Part shown: one piece after another, positions 1,858-27,050 of the stretch
How positions within the stretch are numbered: the first letter of the stretch is position 1
Layout: each line of letters opens with the position of its first letter
Source: Solirubrobacterales bacterium
Lineage (GTDB): Bacteria; Actinomycetota; Thermoleophilia; Solirubrobacterales; 70-9
DNA length: 27,498 nt
Assembly: GCA_036279555.1 (NCBI GenBank)
Contig: DASUIY010000059.1
Coordinates: 1 to 27,498, forward strand
Direction: 5' to 3'
Notes under the pieces: generated by a model
The model's database searches: none
Told to the model about the DNA's origin: nothing
What the model saw: only the letters and a program-made list of their open reading frames with translations
Position numbers and translations under genes: made by a program

Positions 1858-3240
1858 ATGCCCCTGCTCGACGCCCTCCCACTTGCGGCGTCGCAGTCCA
1901 ACCTGCTCGCCGCGCGCGAGCTGATGGCCTTCACCCTCGCCTTCCACATCGTTCTCGCCTGCATCGGCGTCGCTCTGCCGGCGATCATCCTCACCGCCAA
2001 CTGGCTTGGGCTGCGGCGCGGTGACGAGGACGCGATGCGGCTGGCGCGGCGCTGGTCGAAGGCGATGGCGGTGACCTTCGCCGTCGGCGCCGTCACCGGC
2101 ACCGTGCTCAGCTTCGAGTTCGGCCTGCTCTGGCCGCGCTTCATGGAACGCTTCGGCGACGCCTTCGGCATCGCCTTCGCGATCGAGGGCATCTTCTTCT
2201 TCGTCGAGGCGATCTTCCTCGCGATCTACATCTACGGCTGGAAGCGGCTCGGCGGCTGGGCCCATTTCTGGTCCGGCGTGCCGATGGTGATCACCGGCAT
2301 CGGCGGCGCCTTCTCGGTGGTCGCAGCCAACGCCTGGATGAACCAGCCGCAGGGGTTCACCCTCGACGCCAGCGGAAAGGTGGTCGGCACCGACCCGCTC
2401 GAGGTCCTCTTCAACCCGGCGACCGGATACGAGGTGCCGCACATGATCCTCGCCGCCTACATGGTGGCCGGCTTCCTCGTTGCCTCGATCTACGCGGTCG
2501 GCATGCTGCGCGGCCGGCGCGACCGCCTGCACCGGCTGGGGATGGCGATCCCGCTGACGATCGCCTGCATCGCCACCCCGATCCAGCTTTTCGTCGGCGA
2601 CACCGCCGCGCGGGCGATCGCCGACCACCAGCCCGCCAAGTTCGCGGCGATGGAGTGCATCCAGGAAACCGGCCCCGACCAGACCGAGTACATCGGCGGC
2701 ATCTGCACCGACGACGGCGTCAAGGGCGCGATCCCGATCCCCGGCCTCGACTCCTTCCTGGTCGGCTTCAGCCGCGACACGGTGGTCACCGGCCTCGACC
2801 AGATCCCCGATGACGAGGAGCCGCCGGCCAACACCCTGCTGCACCTCTCCTTCGACGCGATGGTCGGCATCGGCACCGCGCTGATGGGGCTGGCGGCCTG
2901 GTTCGGCTTCGTCTGGTGGCGGCGCCGCGAGCTGCCCCGCACGCCCTGGTTCCTGCGCGCGGTCGCGGTCTCCGGCGTCGCCTCGGTCGTCGCGCTGTGG
3001 TGCGGCTGGATCGTCACCGAGGTCGGCCGCCAGCCCTGGATCGTGCAGGGCTTCATGCGCACCGAGGAAGCGGTCACCGAGGCGGAGGGGATCTGGTTCG
3101 CCTTCGCCGGCGTCCTCGTCCTCTACGCCGGACTGGGGACGACGGCGATCCTCGTCCTCCACACCCTCTCCCGTCGCTGGCGCGAGGAGGACGACGCCGC
3201 CGAGGGTGACACCCCCTACGCCCCGCCACGCACCCCATGA
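1858..3240 (+). CDS. cydA: Cytochrome bd ubiquinol oxidase subunit I
   Basis: 460 aa multi-TM protein with AFH (b595 His), GTVLSFEFG, ANAWMNQP, PHM (b558 His), QPAKFAAME, TEVGRQPW and GFMRT motifs. Confidence 0.95.
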   Translation: MPLLDALPLAASQSNLLAARELMAFTLAFHIVLACIGVALPAIILTANWLGLRRGDEDAMRLARRWSKAMAVTFAVGAVTGTVLSFEFGLLWPRFMERFGDAFGIAFAIEGIFFFVEAIFLAIYIYGWKRLGGWAHFWSGVPMVITGIGGAFSVVAANAWMNQPQGFTLDASGKVVGTDPLEVLFNPATGYEVPHMILAAYMVAGFLVASIYAVGMLRGRRDRLHRLGMAIPLTIACIATPIQLFVGDTAARAIADHQPAKFAAMECIQETGPDQTEYIGGICTDDGVKGAIPIPGLDSFLVGFSRDTVVTGLDQIPDDEEPPANTLLHLSFDAMVGIGTALMGLAAWFGFVWWRRRELPRTPWFLRAVAVSGVASVVALWCGWIVTEVGRQPWIVQGFMRTEEAVTEAEGIWFAFAGVLVLYAGLGTTAILVLHTLSRRWREEDDAAEGDTPYAPPRTP

Positions 3241-3241
3241 T

Positions 3242-3290
3242 GCCGACGGGCCGATTCCGGACGCTATGCGTCCGTTTTAGTCCCGTCGGC
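3242..3290. repeat. Palindromic element, family 1, asymmetric intergenic copy
   Basis: GCCGACGGG(3242-3250)/CCCGTCGGC(3282-3290) and CGGACGC/GCGTCCG stems around a TAT loop. The first 19 nt are identical to 8902-8920. Confidence 0.85.
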
Positions 3291-3304
3291 GGGGAGGTTG
3301 GGGG

Positions 3305-4306
3305 GTGACGCGGGCAGACGTGTGCGCGGCGATCCTCTGGACGGGGGCGACCCTCTACGCGGTCTTCGGCGGCGCCGACTTCGGCGCCGGCTTCTGGGAC
3401 CTGATCGCGGGCGGCGCGGAGAAGGGGAAGCGCCCGCGGGCGCTGATCGAGCGCTCGCTGACGCCGGTCTGGGAGGCCAACCACGTCTGGCTGATCTTCA
3501 TCCTCGTGGTCCTCTGGACCGCTTTCCCGGAGGCCTTCGGCGCGATCATGTCGACGCTTTACGTGCCGCTCACCCTGGCAGCCTTCGGCATCGTCCTGCG
3601 CGGCGCCGGCTTCGCCTTCCGCGAGTCGATCCGCTCCGTGGAGGCGCAACGGGCGCTGGGCGCCACCTTTGCCATCTCCTCCGTACTCACCCCGTTCTTC
3701 ATGGGCACCGTGGTCGGCGCGATCGCCGACGGCAACGTCCCCGCCGCGGGGAACGGCGACGCCTTCTCCAGCTGGCTGCAGCCGCTGCCGCTGCTCACCG
3801 GCGGCATGTTCGTCGCCAGCGGCGCCTATCTCGCTGCGGTCTTCCTCGTCGCTGACGCGCGCCGCTCGGGCAGCGCCGAGCTCGAGGGCTACTTCTCCCG
3901 ACGCGCTCTTGCGGCGGCCGTCTTCGCGGGGGCGTTCGCCGTTGTCGGCCTCTTCGTCCTCCACGCCGACAGCCGCTACGTCTTCGACCGGCTCGTCGAC
4001 CAGGCCCTGCCGCTGGTCGTCGTCTCCGGCCTCTGCGGCCTCGCCGTGCTGGTCATGCTGCTGCGCGGCACCCGCCGCGGGCTGCGCCCCCTCGCGGTCG
4101 GGGCCTTCGTCACCGTGATCTGGGGCTGGGGCGCCGCCCAGTTCCCCTACCTGCTGCCGACCTCGCTGAAGATCTCCGAGTCCGCCGCGCCTCCGGAGAC
4201 GCTGGGCGCGGTGATCGTCGTCTTCCTCGTCGCCGCGGTCGTCGTCCTGCCGGCCCTCGGCCTGCTCTACTGGCTCTCGCAGAAGGAGCTGCTGAGTGGC
4301 GAGTGA
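3305..4306 (+). CDS. cydB: Cytochrome bd ubiquinol oxidase subunit II
   Basis: 333 aa hydrophobic protein with GADFGAG, PVWEANHVWLI, LRGAGFAFR and QFPYLLP motifs, directly after cydA. Confidence 0.93.
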   Translation: MTRADVCAAILWTGATLYAVFGGADFGAGFWDLIAGGAEKGKRPRALIERSLTPVWEANHVWLIFILVVLWTAFPEAFGAIMSTLYVPLTLAAFGIVLRGAGFAFRESIRSVEAQRALGATFAISSVLTPFFMGTVVGAIADGNVPAAGNGDAFSSWLQPLPLLTGGMFVASGAYLAAVFLVADARRSGSAELEGYFSRRALAAAVFAGAFAVVGLFVLHADSRYVFDRLVDQALPLVVVSGLCGLAVLVMLLRGTRRGLRPLAVGAFVTVIWGWGAAQFPYLLPTSLKISESAAPPETLGAVIVVFLVAAVVVLPALGLLYWLSQKELLSGE

Positions 4307-7253: not shown

Positions 7254-9659
7254 TTACGGTGCTTCTTCTGCCTCGTACCAGTCGACCCAGCCGTTGCAGG
7301 ATTTGCTTAGCGGGACGATCCGGTGCGGCCGGTCGGGGGTCGCGACCAGCTCGCCCAGGGTCGCCTTGCCCGAGTACCCGGTGAGGCGCTGCAGCGTGCT
7401 CGGCTCATCGGCCGTGACGGTGAACCGGACCGCCCCGCCGTCGCTGCGGATCTTCCCGGCGGGCCAGAACTGGCCGTTGCTGGCGAGGCTGATCGTGGTC
7501 GGCCGCTGACCGTCCTGGGCGGCCTTCAGCGGCTGTCGCAGGCCCGGGGCGGAGAGGGTCAGGCCGAAGGGCGAGAAGTACTGCAGCGAGAGGAGCCAGT
7601 CTCCGGCCGGGAGGGCGAGGGCCTGCGATGCGCTCTCGCCGGTCTCCAGCTCCGGTTCGGGGCTCCAGCGCCCCTTGCCGCCGATCGCGGCACCGGGGAA
7701 GAGCGAGGCGCGACCGGGGTTGGCGGTGAGTATCTGCAGCTCGGGAGCTGTGCAATCGGCGTGTGCCGCCGGCTCGGTCCCCTCCAGCAGCACGTGGCGG
7801 TCGGCCGGCAACGGCCCCGTTCTCTTCCAGAGAAGGTATGAGGGCGTCGCCGCGACGCGCCTGAAGCCCCGCGGCGCTTCGCTGTTCCAGGCCGCCCGCC
7901 CGGTGATCACGTAGGGGAAGCGCGCGAGGGTGGCCTGGGAGAAGGAGTCGAAGTCGATCGGGCTGTAGGCGTCGCCGGTGTCGAACGGCTTCTCGGGGCT
8001 GGCGGTGACCTCGGCGTCGGGGAACTCGACCAGCGGCACGTGCGTGTCGGCCCCCATCAGCTCGTGGGCGGCGTAGCGGTCCTGACCCGCGTATAGGACA
8101 GGCTCCCCCTGGACGACGGGCATGAACGCCTGCAGCTCCGCGCCGTGCCCCGGCGGCCCGACCGGCGCGTCCCGCAGCACGAGCAGGCTCGAGTACACGG
8201 CCCCCGCCACGAACGCCACCGCCAGCACCCCCCAGCCAACCCTCGCCACCCCCGCCGATGGGCCGATTCCGGCCGATATTCGGCCGGAATCGGCCCATCG
8301 GCGGCCAAAGGCGCCGCCGAGCTCGAAAAGGAGGGGGCGGATCGCGACGAGCATCGCCAGCGGGGCGGCGATCATCAGCGCCTTGGCCTGGGAGTACTCA
8401 CCACTGGTGGCGAGTGAGGCGAGATAGAGGATCGTGCAGGCAGCGAGCGCGACCGGGATGGAGAACTCCCGTCGTCGCAGCCACCAGGCGGTTCCCAGGA
8501 CGACGGCGAGCACCCCGATCGCGCCCGCCAGGCCGGTCAGGTGTGCGCCTCCGGCCGCGCTGAGCCGGTAGTTGGAGGCCGGCCAGACGCCGAGCGCCTC
8601 CAGCGGCGAGACCGGCCCGTAGGTGTTGGTGCCGGCGACGCGGTTGAAGCCGTGGACGAAGGCGAAGGGCCCGACCAGCATCAGCGTCACCGTCAGGCCG
8701 CCGAGCACGACGATCGCCAGCAGCAGCTTCGGCCGCAGCAGGGTGCGGGCCAGCCGGGCCGGCCTCAGCTCGGCACGGATCTCGGGCACGGTCGCCGCCC
8801 AGAAGACGAGGATCGCAACCGGCCAGGCAAGCCCGGCGAAGCTGTAGGAGAAGAAGATCCCCCCGGCGAGCGCCAGCGGCACCAGCACCCACCACCACCC
8901 CGCCGACGGGCCGATTCCGGTCCATATTCGACCGGAATCGGCCCGTCGGCGGTCGAGGTCGAAGAGGTAGACGGCGAAGGCGAGGACGAAGAGGGCCTCG
9001 GCGGTCTCCTTGAAGGTGCCCTGGGCGTAGTAGGAGGCGCCGAGGTAGGTGATCGCCACCAGCGTCGCGGCTGCCACCCGGCGGCCGGGCCCGAGGTCGC
9101 CGAGGGCCACGAGCGCGGTCAGCGCGGTCAGCACCCCTATCGCCAGGATCTCTCCGACGAATGCCTGGCCGAGGCCGATGCCCGGCAGCACGGCGACCGT
9201 GTCGGCGAGCGCGTGGGGCCCAAGCGGATAGCCCGCTTCCGGCGTCGGGCCGAGGCCGCTGCGCAGCCACTCGGCCCAGGCCAGGTGCAGCCCGAGGTCG
9301 TTGTTGAAGCCGACGCCCAGCAGCCCCCAGCGCCCGCTGATCGCAAAGGGGATCGAGAGGACCAGGGCGACGACGAAGGCGACGAGGATGCCCAGCCAGA
9401 TCGAGCCCTCGGTGCGTCCGGGGCGCCGCCAGAGCACCAGCGCCGCCACGGCGACCAGGGCGGTCGCGCCCAGCGCCGCGCTGGTCGCGTGCCCCGGGGC
9501 CCGGGCGAGGAAGCCCGTGACCGTGATCATCGCCCCGAAGCCGACCGCAGGCGCCAGCCAGCTGCGCGAGCCGCCCTCCCCCGCGAGGCTGAGGATTGCG
9601 CGTCCCACCAGCATGGAGGCGGCGCAGATCAGCGCCGCCGCGACGTAGGTCCCGATCAT
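7254..9659 (-). CDS. Polytopic membrane protein with C-terminal extracytoplasmic domain (possibly GT-C-like glycosyltransferase; function uncertain)
   Basis: 801 aa with about 12-14 hydrophobic segments, an early NNDLGLH loop and a soluble C-terminal region. The GT-C call rests on topology only. Confidence 0.75.
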   Translation of the reverse strand: MIGTYVAAALICAASMLVGRAILSLAGEGGSRSWLAPAVGFGAMITVTGFLARAPGHATSAALGATALVAVAALVLWRRPGRTEGSIWLGILVAFVVALVLSIPFAISGRWGLLGVGFNNDLGLHLAWAEWLRSGLGPTPEAGYPLGPHALADTVAVLPGIGLGQAFVGEILAIGVLTALTALVALGDLGPGRRVAAATLVAITYLGASYYAQGTFKETAEALFVLAFAVYLFDLDRRRADSGRIWTGIGPSAGWWWVLVPLALAGGIFFSYSFAGLAWPVAILVFWAATVPEIRAELRPARLARTLLRPKLLLAIVVLGGLTVTLMLVGPFAFVHGFNRVAGTNTYGPVSPLEALGVWPASNYRLSAAGGAHLTGLAGAIGVLAVVLGTAWWLRRREFSIPVALAACTILYLASLATSGEYSQAKALMIAAPLAMLVAIRPLLFELGGAFGRRWADSGRISAGIGPSAGVARVGWGVLAVAFVAGAVYSSLLVLRDAPVGPPGHGAELQAFMPVVQGEPVLYAGQDRYAAHELMGADTHVPLVEFPDAEVTASPEKPFDTGDAYSPIDFDSFSQATLARFPYVITGRAAWNSEAPRGFRRVAATPSYLLWKRTGPLPADRHVLLEGTEPAAHADCTAPELQILTANPGRASLFPGAAIGGKGRWSPEPELETGESASQALALPAGDWLLSLQYFSPFGLTLSAPGLRQPLKAAQDGQRPTTISLASNGQFWPAGKIRSDGGAVRFTVTADEPSTLQRLTGYSGKATLGELVATPDRPHRIVPLSKSCNGWVDWYEAEEAP
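8252..8304. repeat. Palindromic element, family 1, in-frame coding copy 1
   Basis: Perfect 25-bp stem (8252-8276/8280-8304) with a TAT loop. Encodes RRWADSGRISAGIGPSA on the minus strand. Confidence 0.95.
8900..8952. repeat. Palindromic element, family 1, in-frame coding copy 2
   Basis: Perfect 23-bp arms (8900-8922/8930-8952), centre CATATTC. Encodes RRRADSGRIWTGIGPSA on the minus strand. Confidence 0.95.
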
Positions 9660-22044: not shown

Positions 22045-22530
22045 GTGGGGAAGAAGAGCTTCGGCCTGTTGGGTGCGGTTGTCCTGGCGATGGCGATGCT
22101 GGCGCTGCCGGCACAGGCGGACGACGCGGAACGCCAGGCCTACAAAGAAGCCGTCGAGCCGATCTGCAAGGCCAACACGCAGGCCAACGAACGGATCCTC
22201 AAGGGGGTCCGCGGCAAGGTCAGAGCCGGCAAGCTGAAGGCGGCGGCGGGCCAGTTCTCGCGTGCCGCCACCGCCCTGCGCAAGACGCACAAAGAACTGA
22301 AGGCCGTTCCCCAGCCCCCGGCGGACGAGACCAAGCTAGCCAAGTGGCTGAAGTACGTCGAAATCGAGGCGAGCCTCTTCCAGAGGACCGCCAAGAAGCT
22401 CAACGCCGGGGACAAGAACGGGGCGCTGGCGATGGTGATCAAGCTCGAACACAACGCCAACCTCGCCAACAACCAGGTGCTCGGCTTCGAATTCCGCTAC
22501 TGCCGCTTCGAACCGTCCAAGTTCACCTAG
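22045..22530 (+). CDS. Secreted helical hypothetical protein
   Basis: GAGGGA RBS, GTG start, signal peptide KKSFGLLGAVVLAMAMLALPAQA, two Cys, amphipathic helices. Confidence 0.75.
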   Translation: MGKKSFGLLGAVVLAMAMLALPAQADDAERQAYKEAVEPICKANTQANERILKGVRGKVRAGKLKAAAGQFSRAATALRKTHKELKAVPQPPADETKLAKWLKYVEIEASLFQRTAKKLNAGDKNGALAMVIKLEHNANLANNQVLGFEFRYCRFEPSKFT

Positions 22531-22552
22531 GCCGGGTCCGGTCCAGCCGCTC

Positions 22553-22596
22553 GATTGAACGATTGACCCACGTATAGGGGGGTCAATCGTTCAATC
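22553..22596. repeat. Palindromic element, family 2, copy A (contains the stop codon of the AbiEi/DUF559 gene)
   Basis: 17-bp perfect arms GATTGAACGATTGACCC (22553-22569)/GGGTCAATCGTTCAATC (22580-22596), centre ACGTATAGGG. Confidence 0.9.
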
Positions 22597-23529
22597 TCCT
22601 CGCTTGCGCGCAAGGGCTGCCGTTTGCCTCAACCTGGCGCGGGCGTAACCAGGTTCGAAGCGGATCTGCGCGTGCGAGAAGCGCAGGGGAAGCAGGCCGG
22701 AAGCCACGTGGGCCTGGTCCCTCAGGAGTCCCCGCGTCTGCTGCGAAGGGGTGCGGTGATAGCGCAGCCCGTCAGTCTCGACGACGATGCCGAGCTCCGG
22801 CCAGTTGAAGTCGACTTCGAAGCCGTTGACCCGGGCTTTCGTCTCCGGCTCCGGAAGACCGGCCGCCCGGGCCAGCGGCCGGAAGCGCAGCTCCAGGTCG
22901 GAGTCGCTCAAACGGAAGGTGCGTCGATCGAGGATCGCTCGCAGCAGCGCGACTCCCGGCTGCCCGCCGTGACGCTCGAGTGCCGCGCGCAGCGTCTCGG
23001 GATCGACCCGGTCGAGCTTGTCGGCCTCGTTGACCGCGCGCTCCAGCTGCATCGGTCGCAGTCGGGTCGCCTCGTCGATCAGCGTGCGGGCCGGGCCGGT
23101 TACCGGAACGCCTTCGTGCGCGGTCAGCTCCTCCGGCAGCAGGGCAGTGCGCCGGTGCACGCGAATCCCGGCGTGGCGGCGGCGGATCGCGGCAGGCACC
23201 GAGACTTCGATCAACCCCTGCGACTCCGCGCCGAAACCCCACAGGGCCGCGGCGCTGTCGTGGCTCAGCACCGCCTCTGGGCCACAGGCCAGCGCTGCCG
23301 CCATCCACCGCCCCAGCCTGCTCAGCTGCGGCCTGCCGACCGCGTATACCCCTCGCCAGACCGGGTGCAGCCGTCCGGTGGCGATCCGCCTCTCGATTTG
23401 GCGCGCCCCGAGCCCCATCTCCAGTAGCTGCCTTCGCGCCACCACACCGTGCTGGCGGTTCACCAGGGCCCATATCTCTGCGTCCCGACCCCGGCGATTA
23501 TCCGGCGACCGGTCGATTGACCCACCCAT
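22591..23529 (-). CDS. AbiEi-antitoxin-like N-terminal domain plus DUF559/Vsr-like PD-(D/E)xK endonuclease domain protein
   Basis: N-terminal QHGVVARRQLL...GRLHPVWRGVYAVG and VLSHDSAAALWG. C-terminal SDLELRF...VDFNWPELGIVVETDGLRYH...RD...GLLPLRF. Exact start uncertain. Confidence 0.85.
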   Translation of the reverse strand: MGGSIDRSPDNRRGRDAEIWALVNRQHGVVARRQLLEMGLGARQIERRIATGRLHPVWRGVYAVGRPQLSRLGRWMAAALACGPEAVLSHDSAAALWGFGAESQGLIEVSVPAAIRRRHAGIRVHRRTALLPEELTAHEGVPVTGPARTLIDEATRLRPMQLERAVNEADKLDRVDPETLRAALERHGGQPGVALLRAILDRRTFRLSDSDLELRFRPLARAAGLPEPETKARVNGFEVDFNWPELGIVVETDGLRYHRTPSQQTRGLLRDQAHVASGLLPLRFSHAQIRFEPGYARARLRQTAALARKRGD

Positions 23530-23550
23530 ACGGTGGTAAAGGGTTCAGCG
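23507..23550. repeat. Palindromic element, family 2, copy B (degenerate; contains the predicted ATG of the AbiEi/DUF559 gene)
   Basis: Ungapped match to copy A at 30 of 44 nt, including an identical CGATTGACCCAC. Residual stem CCACC/GGTGG around CATAC. Confidence 0.7.
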
Positions 23551-23592
23551 GGTCGTTCTCTGCCCCCGACGGCAGGGGCGGGCCGCTGCGAG

Positions 23593-23608: not shown

Positions 23609-23681
23609 GCCCAGGTAGCTCAGTTGGTAGAGCACATCCATGGTAAGGATGGGGTCACGAGTTCGAGTCTCGTCCTGGGCT
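23609..23681 (+). tRNA. tRNA-Thr(GGT)
   Basis: Acceptor GCCCAGG/CCTGGGC, D-arm GCTC/GAGC, anticodon arm CATCC-ATGGTAA-GGATG, T-loop TTCGAGT, U73. Confidence 0.95.
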
Positions 23682-23782: not shown

Positions 23783-24136
23783 ATGGAGGCGATGAGGGAA
23801 AGCTGGAGCGACGATCGGCTCGACCATCTCAACCAGCGGGTCGAGGAAGGCTTCGCGCGAGTAGACCGGCGTTTCGAGCAGGTCGACCGGCGTTTCGAGC
23901 AGATCGACCGGCGGTTTGAACAGGTCGACGAACGCTTCGACCAAGTCAATCGCCAGTTCGACGAAGTCACCAGGCGCCTCGACGAGATGAACAAGCACTT
24001 CGAGCGTATGGAAGACCGTTATGACCAGGCCAGCGAGCGCATCTTCGGCACCCAGCGGATCATGATCGCGGTCGGCGGCGGGATGATCGCCACCCTCGCC
24101 GCGTCCCTGGTAACCGTGCTCGGCTCCCACGTCTAA
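23783..24136 (+). CDS. Heptad-repeat coiled-coil protein with C-terminal membrane anchor
   Basis: MEAMRESWSDDRLD...; (V/I)DRRFEQ-type heptads; hydrophobic C-terminus. Start trimmed out of the tRNA-Thr gene. Confidence 0.75.
   Translation: MEAMRESWSDDRLDHLNQRVEEGFARVDRRFEQVDRRFEQIDRRFEQVDERFDQVNRQFDEVTRRLDEMNKHFERMEDRYDQASERIFGTQRIMIAVGGGMIATLAASLVTVLGSHV
23861..23986 (+). repeat. Six degenerate 21-bp tandem coding repeats
   Basis: GTAGACCGGCGTTTCGAGCAG, GTCGACCGGCGTTTCGAGCAG, ATCGACCGGCGGTTTGAACAG, and so on, with increasing divergence. Confidence 0.85.
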
Positions 24137-25362: not shown

Positions 25363-25458
25363 GCGCCCGTAGCTCAGTGGTCAACGGGGTTTTAACGAGC
25401 CCCAAAGAGCGCCGGTCTTTCAAGCCGGAGGTCGAGAGTTCGATTCTCTCCGGGCGCA
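25363..25458 (+). tRNA. Atypical tRNA, anticodon TTC (nominally Glu), with a hairpin inserted in the D-loop
   Basis: Acceptor GCGCCCG/CGGGCGC, D-stem GCTC/GAGC, anticodon arm CCGGT-CTTTCAA-GCCGG, variable AGGTC, T-arm GAGAG-TTCGATT-CTCTC, A73. There are 25 nt between G19 and A21. Confidence 0.8.
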
Positions 25459-25645: not shown

Positions 25646-25852
25646 ATGAGGCCGACCGATGCAGGCCACCGCGCCTGGTTCACGCCAGAGAGCCTGGCGA
25701 GCCACCTGCAGGTCTCAGAGCGCATGGTGCGCAAGTGGGTCGCGCAGGGGCGCCTTCGCTCTTACAAGCTCGACGGCTGCCGTCGCTTCGACCCCGCCGA
25801 TGTCGACGCCTTCGTCGCCCAGTTCCGCGACGAGCGGGGGAGGGGACGGTGA
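25646..25852 (+). CDS. Excisionase-like helix-turn-helix DNA-binding protein
   Basis: 68 aa, FTPESLASHLQVSERMVRKWVAQGRLRSYKLDGCRRFDPADVDAF, typical of the HTH_17/Xis family. GTGA overlap with the integrase. Confidence 0.82.
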   Translation: MRPTDAGHRAWFTPESLASHLQVSERMVRKWVAQGRLRSYKLDGCRRFDPADVDAFVAQFRDERGRGR

Positions 25853-27050
25853 GTCGCACAGCCGCCGCCGGCAGACCGCCGCGCCAGACTCCCTACAGGC
25901 GCGTCTACACGAACGGCAGGGTGGTTTGGATCGCGCGCTACCGGGACTTCGACGGCAAGATGCGCTACGCCAAGCCGCGCTGGAACGGCGGCAAGTCCTC
26001 CTTCGCCCTCAAGGGCGATGCTCAGCGGGCGATCGACGAGGCGCTCAACCGCCTCCACGGCGGCGTTGCGATGCCCGAGAGGATCGGCGGGTACTTCGAG
26101 CGCTGGCTACAGCACCACCCGCGCTCCGAGCGCACTGACAAGACGAACTCCGACCGTGTCTCCTACGTGCTCGACGTCGAGATCGACGGGCGGGCGCTCC
26201 GGGACTGGGAGTTCGACGAGCTCCGTCGTCGACAGGTCCTCGCCCTGCTCGATCACATGCTCCGGGTCGAAGGCCGTGCCGCGGAAGGCGCCCGCGGCAT
26301 CCTCAGCGTGCTTTCCGCGATGGCCGAGGACGCGATCGGCGACGAGGCGGCGACCCAGAACGCCTTCATCGGGATTCGCCTGCGCCGCAACGACCCACGG
26401 AGCAGGAAGCCGCCGAGGAAGATCCGGATCTGGAGCTTCGAGCAGATGCGGGTGTTTGCGGCTGGAGGGAGGCCCGAGATGCGCGCCGCGACCCCGCGCC
26501 CGCCCGATCCCCGCACCAAGGGCCGCTACAAGTCGAAAGCGCGCTTCTACCCGCCCCACGACTACGAGGCTCTGCTCCTGACTCCAGGCTTCACCGGCCT
26601 GCGCCTGGGCGAGTTCCTCGCCCTGGAAAGGCCCGGATACGACGGCCACTCCTTCCGCTTCGAGTTCTCCGCCCACGAAGGCAAGCTGGTCGGCTCAAGC
26701 GACCAGAAGAACCACGAGCGCACCGTCCCGGTGCCGCCGACCCTGGCCGAGCTGATCGACCGCCGCCCGCCACGCATCGACACCCCGATCTCCTCTTCCC
26801 GACGCCACGCGGCAAGCTCTGGCGCGAGCGCAACTTCTACCGCGAGGTCTGGGTCCCGGCCCAACTCGCGACCGGCCTCGACCCCACCCCGCACGAGTTC
26901 CGCCACTCCTACGTCACGCACCTCGTCGCCGCCGGCGTCGACCGAGCCGACCTCGCCAAGGTCGCCGGCCACACTGTCGAGACGATGATCTCCGTCTACA
27001 CCCACGCCCTCGACCGCAGCCATGATCAGATCAGGGAGATCATCGGGTAG
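25849..27050 (+). pseudogene. Tyrosine recombinase/integrase with a frameshift at about 26788-26790
   Basis: Frame 1 gives the N-terminal and core domains and TGLRLGE. After ...IDTP the C-terminus continues in another frame: LLFPTPRGKLW...HEFRHSY...AGHT..MISVYTH...* (stop 27048-27050). Confidence 0.82.

What the first reader, a model, noticed from the sequence alone, without database searches (positions are those of the whole stretch)
22553..23550. AbiEi-like/DUF559 nuclease gene bracketed by two related palindromes at its stop and start codons
Seen: a 44-bp palindrome with 17-bp perfect arms (22553-22596) contains the gene's stop codon. A second copy in the same orientation (23507-23550; 30/44 ungapped identity, identical CGATTGACCCAC) holds the predicted ATG in its loop. 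The unit sits between a secreted-protein gene and tRNA-Thr. Known: DUF559 is a Vsr-like PD-(D/E)xK nuclease fold and AbiEi N-terminal domains bind DNA, while REP palindromes are mobilised by a flanked RAYT nuclease gene. Inference: this may be a transposase-free selfish cassette, analogous to RAYT/REP but using a DUF559 nuclease, or the palindromes may be autoregulatory operators. No AbiEii toxin gene is adjacent, so a simple type IV TA module does not explain it.
Basis: partly seen in the sequence, partly recalled or inferred. Interest (0 to 1): 0.85.

Follow-up and report, generated by a model that had tools for sequence, protein, structure and literature searches.

The report
Nuclease gene framed by its palindromes
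A gene for a DNA-binding nuclease in a soil actinobacterium sits between two copies of a short palindromic repeat that is also scattered around the genome, and each sister gene has its own repeat family; this resembles the known REP/RAYT repeat-and-enzyme partnership but uses an unrelated enzyme.

Summary
The palindrome at 22553-22596 has 17-bp perfect arms and covers the stop codon. The 30/44-identical copy at 23507-23550 holds the ATG, though it no longer folds as a hairpin in this genome.

The palindrome is one member of a dispersed repeat family, with at least 13 sites in this Solirubrobacterales MAG and matches in 19 of 24 genus genomes. The protein has an AbiEi fold plus a Vsr/I-Bth0305I-like nuclease domain. 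D240, E251 and H258 are invariant, and dN/dS is about 0.2.

- Nearly all of 80 homologues inspected, and all 7 paralogues here, carry a lineage-specific palindrome centred on the start codon. Many carry a second copy after the stop.
- Six of the 7 paralogues have their own family of solo copies.
- For one sister family, the repeat variant in each of 4 genomes equals the variant beside that genome's gene. At 8 orthologous sites the core was replaced in place at 5 to 6.
- The locus itself is occupied in 4 genomes, holds one hybrid solo palindrome in 1, and is empty in at least 4.
- No RAYT was found in 41 genomes.

Whether the nuclease acts on the repeats is unproven. This scan has reported the same layout on other DNA (207 notes, at least 183 genomes). 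I found no published description.

The parts
22553..22596 (.). Palindrome a: 44 bp with 17-bp perfect arms. It is the 3' framing copy, overlaps the stop codon, and is a type-1 member of the dispersed repeat family.
   Evidence: hairpin z = -7.7; model R1, E = 2.7e-17. In the source metagenome other contigs share only about 22553-22593 (loose ends at 22552/22556 and 22593).
22591..23529 (-). Gene for a 312-aa protein: an AbiEi-fold module (wHTH plus AbiEi C-terminal domain, residues about 17-200) fused to a Vsr/DUF559-type nuclease domain (about 215-312).
   Evidence: Pfam; PADLOC AbiEi E = 3e-33; AlphaFold model with pLDDT 89.7; Foldseek hits 6y8q, 1zel, 3r3p, 3hrl, 1cw0; invariant D240, E251, H258; dN/dS 0.14-0.24.
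23507..23550 (.). Copy b: the 5' framing copy of the repeat, with a degenerate right arm. The ATG lies in its centre, and its gene-side arm encodes residues 2-7.
   Evidence: (E = 2.8e-12). The same ATG-centred palindrome is seen in orthologues and paralogues.
23556..23567 (-). G-run GGGGGCAGAGAA (read on the minus strand), about 5 nt upstream of the 5' palindrome. A counterpart (GGGGGGAGAA-like) precedes the 5' palindrome in nearly all family members. Its role is unknown.
   Evidence: Seen directly.

Best explanation
The gene belongs to a family of AbiEi-fold (winged-helix) proteins fused to a Vsr-type nuclease. The family is found in Solirubrobacterales and apparently more widely in Actinomycetota. 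Each gene is framed by copies of its own short palindromic repeat, and the same repeat type is scattered through the genome as solo copies, mostly just downstream of stop codons.

Proposed mechanism (inferred, not shown):
- The protein binds its cognate palindrome through the winged helix.
- Binding at the 5' copy, which is centred on its own start codon, gives autoregulation, as in AbiEi antitoxins.
- The nuclease domain nicks or cuts at palindromes. Repair that copies from other family members keeps the dispersed copies like the copies beside the gene and occasionally seeds new ones.

The logic is that of REP/RAYT (a vertically inherited, single-copy enzyme gene inside its own repeat family), but the enzyme and therefore the chemistry are different.

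Shown here: the anatomy, the pairing of each gene with its repeat type, the genome-specific matching of variants, the in-place replacement of repeat cores, the polymorphism of the locus, and the fold with a conserved active site.

Inferred: binding, cutting, and any causal role of the protein in repeat maintenance.
For: 1. The repeat is dispersed. There are at least 13 type-1 sites in this MAG. Model R1 matches 19 of 24 genus genomes. The core pattern gives 7-12 hits per strand per genome against 0 for the reversed control.

2. Arms covary. The covariation score exceeds 499 of 500 shuffles. In solo copies of G041, G070 and G023 the variable 4-5-nt segment is, with few exceptions, self-complementary.

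3. All 7 paralogues here carry a palindrome at the 5' end of the gene (the start codon lies in its centre in most; in C185 the palindrome lies just upstream), and so do nearly all of the 80 homologues at 55-91% identity that were inspected. A large subclade has a second related copy after the stop.

4. Six of the 7 paralogues have cognate solo families in the same genome. The window gene has about 11, the C30 paralogue at least 10, C342 has 6, and C185 at least 22 with 6 identical over 45/45 bp.

5. For the C185-type family, the inner segment of the dispersed copies equals the variant beside the gene in each of 4 genomes. For G021 the variant was predicted from its gene locus before the search, and 21 of 23 arms then matched.

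6. At 8 orthologous sites shared by G021 and G000, 5 carry the genome-specific core on both arms, 1 carries another core, and 2 are unchanged. Outer arms and flanks are conserved throughout.

7. For type 1, the commonest arm type equals an arm of the gene's own palindromes in 3 of 4 gene-bearing genomes.

8. Locus states: occupied in the window, G041, L033 and L035. G070 has one solo palindrome, a hybrid of the outer arm of copy a and the outer arm of copy b. G021, G023, G050 and G060 are empty.

9. No Y1 transposase was found in 41 genus genomes, while the control search found it in 6 of 14 reference genomes.

10. Among solo copies whose context could be classified, 10 lie between convergent genes, 12 in tandem arrangements and 1 in a divergent region. 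Many have their centre 26-32 nt after a stop codon.

11. The fold and the invariant D240/E251/H258, and purifying selection on the gene.
Against: - No binding or cleavage data exist.
- A hydrolytic Vsr-type nuclease cannot carry out strand transfer, so any copying must go through host repair, which is speculative.
- Type-1 solo copies are numerous in genomes that lack the gene at this locus. In the R1 scans G023 had 36-38 matches counted on both strands (roughly 19 sites) and G021 15 (roughly 8 sites).
- In G041 the arms of the gene's own palindrome (AACAG) are not the common solo type.
- Paralogue C163 has no solo copies.
- An earlier check of this scan, on other DNA, reported that a pre-set co-occurrence test failed.
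- These genomes hold several other hairpin families at the same kinds of site, so recombination or replication at hairpins could homogenise repeats without this protein.
- Copy b in the window is decayed as a hairpin.
Confidence: 0.5

Rival explanations
1. Operator only. The framing palindromes are autoregulatory operators of an AbiEi-type regulator. The solo copies are REP-like terminator or 3'-UTR hairpins that derive from, or merely share ancestry with, such operators. They are spread and homogenised by host processes (replication slippage at hairpins, ectopic recombination) without any action of this protein.
For: The start-codon-centred palindrome is family-wide. The N-terminal 200 residues match AbiEi, whose established role is operator binding and negative autoregulation (family knowledge). 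Other, unrelated hairpin families occupy the same intergenic sites. Type-1 solo copies persist in genomes without this gene.
Against: It does not explain three things: why the second copy follows the stop in a large subclade; why 6 of 7 paralogues each share their repeat type with dispersed copies; and why the genome-specific variant of the dispersed copies follows the variant beside the gene, including a forward prediction. It also leaves unexplained a conserved nuclease active site kept under purifying selection.
Confidence: 0.22
2. Homing-type selfish gene. The repeats spread by some other means, and the nuclease gene is a free-standing homing endonuclease gene. It cuts solo palindromes at their centre and is copied into them, using the two arms as homology.
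For: The nuclease domain is closest in fold to the catalytic domain of the homing endonuclease I-Bth0305I (TM 0.8). The locus is polymorphic among close relatives. The G070 solo palindrome equals the outer arm of copy b plus the outer arm of copy a, exactly the target such a model predicts. The ORF starts at the palindrome centre and ends at the next palindrome.
Against: Gene clades track loci and each locus class is monophyletic. There is usually one copy of each type per genome. The only duplication seen (G070, 1.44 kb at 96.8% identity) includes about 350 bp of the upstream neighbouring gene, so it is segmental. The hybrid solo palindrome is equally explained by deletion through recombination between the two framing copies.
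Confidence: 0.13
3. Single-chain toxin-antitoxin or defence module. An AbiEi-type antitoxin or regulator is fused to a nuclease effector. The palindromes serve only its regulation, and the similarity to dispersed repeats is secondary.
For: Strong AbiEi matches in PADLOC and PDB. No AbiEii partner is adjacent, so the nuclease could replace the toxin. DUF559 proteins are listed as enriched among predicted programmed-inversion targets together with R-M genes (PMC9881135).
Against: There are 7-12 paralogues per 2.5-Mb genome at conserved chromosomal loci. No defence-island context was seen. The repeat pairing described above is left unexplained.
Confidence: 0.07
4. Chance. Generic terminator hairpins happen to lie on both sides of an ordinary gene.
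For: Palindrome a lies between convergent genes, where terminators are expected.
Against: The two copies share sequence beyond chance. The layout recurs in orthologues at other loci, in all paralogues and in 80 homologues. No T-tract terminator was called at the site.
Confidence: 0.03

Closest known systems
REP/REPIN-RAYT systems (REPtrons) of Proteobacteria (PMC2817692, PMC3116915, PMC5581495)
   Same: Short dispersed palindromes, mostly extragenic. A single-copy, vertically inherited enzyme gene is flanked by its own repeat type. Several gene and repeat pairs coexist in one genome. Repeat variants are lineage-specific.
   Different: The enzyme is not an HUH Y1 transposase but an AbiEi-fold winged helix fused to a Vsr-type hydrolytic nuclease, and no PF01797 match was found in 41 genomes. 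There is no GTAG/CGTC head. The framing copies are direct repeats, and the 5' one contains the start codon. Repeat cores are replaced in place at orthologous sites.
AbiEi antitoxin of type IV AbiE toxin-antitoxin systems (PDB 6y8q; Rv2827c, 1zel)
   Same: The fold of residues about 17-200. A palindrome over the promoter/start region fits AbiEi-type autoregulation through inverted repeats.
   Different: No AbiEii nucleotidyltransferase is adjacent. A C-terminal nuclease domain is added. The 'operator' sequence is also dispersed through the genome.
Vsr-like / EDxHD nucleases: DUF559 (3hrl), homing endonuclease I-Bth0305I (3r3p), Vsr (1cw0)
   Same: The fold of the C-terminal ~100 residues (TM 0.76-0.81 normalised to the target) and a conserved acidic/His motif (D240, E251, D253, H258).
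   Different: The gene is not in an intron or a phage. It is fused to an AbiEi module. The window protein is below the Pfam DUF559 threshold.
IS200/IS605 elements
   Same: A gene lies between two similar hairpins in the same orientation.
   Different: There is no TnpA or TnpB. The gene stays at fixed loci. Complete palindromes, not subterminal hairpins with cleavage sites, frame the gene.
MITEs and RPE-type in-frame palindromic insertions
   Same: Small palindromic units are inserted between genes and, for the sister type 2, in frame within a membrane-protein gene (window 8252-8304 and 8900-8952).
   Different: No related transposase-bearing parent element was found, and target-site duplication is unclear.

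Membership tests
REP/RAYT (REPtron) | Dispersed short palindromic repeats, mainly extragenic | tested here: met
REP/RAYT (REPtron) | Cognate gene flanked by its own repeat type | tested here: met
REP/RAYT (REPtron) | The gene encodes an HUH Y1 transposase (Pfam Y1_Tnp, PF01797) | tested here: not met
   0 of 41 genus genomes have a match. The protein is AbiEi plus a Vsr-like domain.
REP/RAYT (REPtron) | Conserved GTAG or CGTC tetranucleotide at the head of the repeat | tested here: not met
   The alignment A1 consensus and the solo copies begin CGAcTG... or TTCCGG....
Type IV toxin-antitoxin AbiE | AbiEi fold (wHTH plus C-terminal domain) | tested here: met
   Pfam AbiEi_1 and AbiEi_4; PADLOC E = 3e-33; 6y8q E = 3.5e-7.
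Type IV toxin-antitoxin AbiE | Adjacent AbiEii nucleotidyltransferase toxin gene | tested here: not met
   PF08843 matches only on C344, C99 and C151, none beside a paralogue.
Type IV toxin-antitoxin AbiE | Autoregulation by binding inverted repeats at its own promoter | not testable with these tools
   A palindrome centred on the start codon is compatible with this, but no binding data exist.
DUF559 / Vsr-like PD-(D/E)xK nuclease | Pfam DUF559 at the gathering threshold | tested here: not met
   The window protein scores 15.2 bits against 20.6. Paralogues score 24 and 32 bits and pass.
DUF559 / Vsr-like PD-(D/E)xK nuclease | Vsr-like fold with conserved catalytic acidic/His residues | tested here: met
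   3r3p, 3hrl and 1cw0; D240, E251 and H258 invariant and D253 at least 90% conserved in 38 sequences.
Free-standing homing endonuclease gene | Presence/absence polymorphism at one locus among close relatives | tested here: met
Free-standing homing endonuclease gene | Gene phylogeny discordant with locus or host (horizontal spread) | tested here: not met
   Locus classes loc4-loc7 are each monophyletic.
MITE | Target-site duplication and a transposase-bearing parent element with the same ends | tested here: inconclusive
   No clear duplication at G041 L115 versus C276. A possible CTCAT(C)G duplication at G021 L168 versus C394. No parent element was seen.

The most novel reading that the evidence does not exclude
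A new class of repeat-and-enzyme partnership. A winged-helix/Vsr-type nuclease recognises its own family of dispersed palindromes, and cutting followed by templated repair (a homing-like gene conversion) overwrites their cores. The repeat population in each genome is thereby kept in step with the copies that frame the gene. Several such pairs with different specificities coexist in one small genome.
Probability: 0.35. Interest if true: 0.9.

Novelty: new variant of a known kind. Interest (0 to 1): 0.8.

Why it matters
REP sequences have so far one known partner enzyme, the RAYT tyrosine transposases, and they are mainly a proteobacterial story. Here the same genomic logic appears in Actinomycetota with an unrelated, hydrolytic nuclease fused to an antitoxin-type DNA-binding module.

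If the protein acts on the repeats, three things would follow:
- It would reveal a second, mechanistically different way in which bacteria (or selfish DNA) maintain families of palindromic repeats.
- It would give a function to a very large family now annotated as 'AbiEi antitoxin domain/DUF559'.
- It would offer a set of natural proteins with diverse, readable DNA specificities, each gene carrying its own target beside it.

The in-place replacement of repeat cores at orthologous sites makes the question directly testable.

Tried and rejected
- Rfam search of the region: only tRNAs and sub-threshold noise.
- Sigma-70 promoter and T-tract terminator scan: nothing at either palindrome.
- NCBIfam: no family for the protein.
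- Literature: no paper holds both DUF559 and AbiEi. The 25 DUF559 papers and the 19 papers holding AbiEi, palindromic, endonuclease and repeats contain no description of this layout. The only related item is a table row listing DUF559 among predicted inversion targets.
- RAYT hypothesis: rejected.
- Regulon/operator reading of the solo copies: rejected on position, with 1 of 23 classifiable sites in a divergent region.
- Strict-pattern co-occurrence of the C185-type repeat with its gene across 60 genomes was uninformative, because the repeat variant changes between genomes. I replaced it with the variant-matching test.
- 5' palindromes centred on the ATG were not evident in 26 distant homologues (27-40% identity) from other families. 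However, 14 of 23 of them share a repeat between their two flanks, 8 of these over 30 nt or more.
- Public reads: only contigs were available. No joined form that skips the gene was seen, and no RNA run was found.
- The dS comparison with flanking genes (gene 0.45 against 0.13-0.22) is confounded by codon bias and was not used.
- The ORF after the tRNA at 25363 has no Pfam match, so no integrase claim is made.
- Loci from the unpublished genome G077 were left out of all analyses.

Full report
**Observation**

The window is contig C59 of a 2.25-Mb Solirubrobacterales MAG: 403 contigs, 69% G+C, 85% complete.

- The minus-strand ORF 22591-23529 encodes 312 aa.
- At its 3' end lies a 44-bp palindrome (22553-22596) with 17/17 complementary arms and a 10-nt centre. 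The TGA stop is inside the right arm. As single-stranded DNA it folds at -19.4 kcal/mol (z = -7.7).
- At the 5' end, 23507-23550 is 30/44 identical in the same orientation, shares CGATTGACCCAC, and has the ATG in its centre. This copy is decayed: it folds no better than shuffles (z = -0.8).
- tRNA-Thr follows at 23609-23681, and a gene for a protein with a signal-like N-terminus ends at 22530.
- Perfect-arm palindromes of 14 bp or more occur 10 times in the window and never in 10 Markov-1 random sequences.

**The protein**

- Pfam finds AbiEi_4 (residues 23-64) and AbiEi_1 (90-185). DUF559 is below threshold for this protein but above it for paralogues. PADLOC AbiEi models match residues 17-190 at E = 3e-33.
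- An AlphaFold model built on 38 family members has mean pLDDT 89.7.
- Its first ~200 residues match the AbiEi antitoxin 6y8q (E = 3.5e-7) and Rv2827c. The last ~100 residues match the catalytic domain of homing endonuclease I-Bth0305I (TM 0.8 to the target), the DUF559 protein NGO0050 and Vsr.
- D240, E251 and H258 are invariant in the alignment.
- Orthologues at this locus give dN/dS of 0.14-0.24.
- AbiEii homologues exist in the genome, but on other contigs than any paralogue.

**The palindrome is a dispersed repeat**

- Fuzzy searches and a covariance model (R1, built from 10 copies) find at least 13 type-1 sites in the MAG. They lie next to unrelated housekeeping genes such as metK, lon, polA, a TetR gene and a NUDIX gene.
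- R1 matches 19 of 24 other genomes of the genus and few genomes outside it.
- The core TTGACCCnCnnATnnnnGGGTCAA gives 7-12 hits per strand per genome and none for the reversed control.
- Solo copies have the form CGAcTG, then 4-5 variable nt, then TTGACCC..ATA..GGGTCAA, then the complement of the variable nt, then CAgTCG. The variable segment differs between copies and is, with few exceptions, self-complementary.
- An orthologous solo copy shows a compensatory change in G023, and its 24-bp core is flipped between G041 and G070.
- Rfam has no matching family.
- No Y1 transposase was found in 41 genomes of the genus.

**The gene family and its palindromes**

- The MAG has 7 paralogues. Each has a palindrome of about 45-55 bp at its 5' end. 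The start codon usually lies in the centre, and a G-run (GGGGGGAGAA-like) lies a few to about 10 nt upstream. Arms differ between paralogues but stay complementary.
- The same holds for nearly all of 80 homologues at 55-91% identity from Solirubrobacterales/Thermoleophilia MAGs. A large subclade carries a second, related copy directly after the stop, often a near-identical direct repeat of the 5' copy.
- The closest homologues in G018, G009 and G002 are bracketed at both ends, at a different locus.
- In more distant Actinomycetota, ATG-centred palindromes were not evident. However, 14 of 23 homologues share a repeat between their two flanks, 8 of these over 30 nt or more. This agrees with earlier notes of this scan that the layout is widespread.

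**Each paralogue has its own solo family**

| Paralogue | Cognate solo copies in the same genome |
|---|---|
| Window gene (3' palindrome) | about 11 type-1 copies |
| C317 | 2 (5' type) and 2 (3' type) |
| C74 | 4 matches (window 8256 and 8908, C362, C95); window 3242 and C278 found by motif search |
| C30 | at least 10 |
| C342 | 6 |
| C185 | at least 22, of which 6 identical over 45/45 bp |
| C163 | none |

Among solo copies whose context could be classified, 10 lie between convergent genes, 12 in tandem arrangements and 1 in a divergent region. Many are centred 26-32 nt after a stop codon. This speaks against a regulon of operators.

**Genome-specific variants and in-place replacement**

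This analysis used the C185-type family.

- The inner segment of the dispersed copies is TGGACC in this genome, TGCACC in G051 and TGTGCC/TGCCAC in G070. In each case this is the variant found beside the gene.
- From the G021 gene locus I predicted a TCCCC variant. The subsequent search found it in 21 of 23 arms in G021.
- At 8 orthologous sites shared by G021 and this genome, flanks align at 84-93% on both sides. G021 always has the core CCCC(C/G)...GGGG. This genome has GGACC/GTACC...GGTCC at 5 sites, another core at 1, and the CCCCC type at 2. The outer arms are unchanged throughout.
- Point mutation cannot produce the same coordinated change on both arms at five loci. Copying between repeat members can.
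- For type 1 the link is looser. The commonest arm type equals an arm of the gene's own palindromes in 3 of 4 gene-bearing genomes, but not in G041.

**The locus**

| State between the secreted-protein gene and tRNA-Thr | Genomes |
|---|---|
| Gene with both palindromes | window, G041 (83% identity), L033 (91%), L035 (78%) |
| No gene, one solo palindrome (left arm matches copy a, right arm and right flank match copy b) | G070 |
| Empty, 50-95-bp spacer | G023, G021, G050, G060 |
| A different ~1-kb ORF in the gap | G002, G074 |

In G041 palindrome a is again perfect, with compensatory changes on both arms (AACAG/CTGTT). The hybrid solo palindrome fits deletion by recombination between the two framing copies. 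It fits equally well the target of an insertion.

All these genomes are about equally distant from the window (ACAD dS 0.11-0.14). The tree of 82 family members shows that gene clades track loci (loc4, 5, 6 and 7 are each monophyletic). The genes are therefore mostly inherited vertically and rarely move.

**Public data**

Only contigs were available. In the source sample other contigs share only about 22553-22593, which marks the repeat unit. Another soil sample holds the occupied form at about 90% identity. No joined form that skips the gene was seen.

**Interpretation**

The anatomy and the pairing of gene with repeat are solid. The best reading (confidence 0.5) has three parts:
- The protein binds its cognate palindromes.
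- It autoregulates at the 5' copy.
- Through its nuclease domain it provokes copying between repeat members.

This is REP/RAYT-like in logic but uses an unrelated enzyme.

Points against this reading:
- There is no biochemistry.
- Type-1 repeats persist in genomes without this gene.
- G041 is a mismatch, and C163 has no solo copies.
- Other hairpin families share the same kinds of site.
- An earlier co-occurrence test elsewhere in this scan failed.

The rivals are operator-only (0.22), a homing-type selfish gene (0.13), a fused toxin-antitoxin or defence module (0.07) and chance (0.03).

**Novelty**

I found no published description. The scan has noted the same layout before on other DNA: 207 notes in at least 183 genomes. 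I reached my reading before consulting those notes. They agree with it and add that the layout is widespread.

Noticed in passing
window 8252-8304 and 8900-8952 (inside ORF 7254-9659, minus strand); also about 3242-3290: Two 53-bp type-2 palindromes (CCGCCGAyGGGCCGATTCCGG..ATAT..CCGGAATCGGCCCrTCGGCGG) lie inside an 801-aa ORF; whether they are read in frame was not checked here. They are 86-87% identical to the 5' palindrome of paralogue C74:3999-4886. A degenerate relative lies at about 3242.
   Followed up: partly
window 23556-23567 and the equivalent place in L002-L007 and L033-L112: A conserved G-run (GGGGGGAGAA-like) lies a few to about 10 nt upstream of the 5' palindrome, about 30 nt before the ATG. 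That is too far for a normal ribosome-binding site. It sits at the -35 position if the mRNA is leaderless.
   Followed up: no
window 23783-24136: A small coiled-coil gene with RRFEQVD-type repeats, on the other side of tRNA-Thr, is itself an indel. It is present in G041 and G002 and absent in G021 and G023. Contigs of two other soil samples skip 461-463 nt here.
   Followed up: partly
window 25363-25458: A 96-nt tRNA (Rfam 66 bits). ARAGORN calls it Ala(AGC) here and Pro(AGG) at the same place in G050. The following ORF (25816-26988) has no Pfam match.
   Followed up: partly
L121 (G041) versus L125 (G070), orthologous to G000 C302:12292-12335: The 24-bp asymmetric core of the same solo palindrome is inverted between two genomes while the arms and flanks stay. 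This is a flip of the centre between the inverted arms.
   Followed up: no
G000 C357:~21024 versus L124 (G070); C346:~5600 versus L131 (G023); C222:4888-5334; C238: The same intergenic site holds different palindrome types, or quite different long hairpins or MITE-like inserts, in different genomes. These sites behave as hot spots for hairpin elements.
   Followed up: no
L161 and L162 (G070:C1:~1562400-1563800 and ~2071900-2073300): A 1.44-kb segment with a C185-type gene, its palindromes and about 350 bp of the upstream neighbouring gene is present twice at 96.8% identity. This is a segmental duplication rather than a unit bounded by the repeats.
   Followed up: partly
L030 (G002) 3069-4061 and L032 (G074) 2533-3525: In these two genomes the gap between the secreted-protein gene and tRNA-Thr holds a different ~1-kb minus-strand ORF with a signal-like N-terminus, instead of the nuclease gene.
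   Followed up: no
L168 (G021) versus G000 C394:~1919: A C185-type repeat (about 83 bp with its C-rich/G-rich extensions) is present in G021 and absent here. CTCAT(C)G occurs at both ends, a possible target duplication. It lies directly upstream of a start codon.
   Followed up: partly
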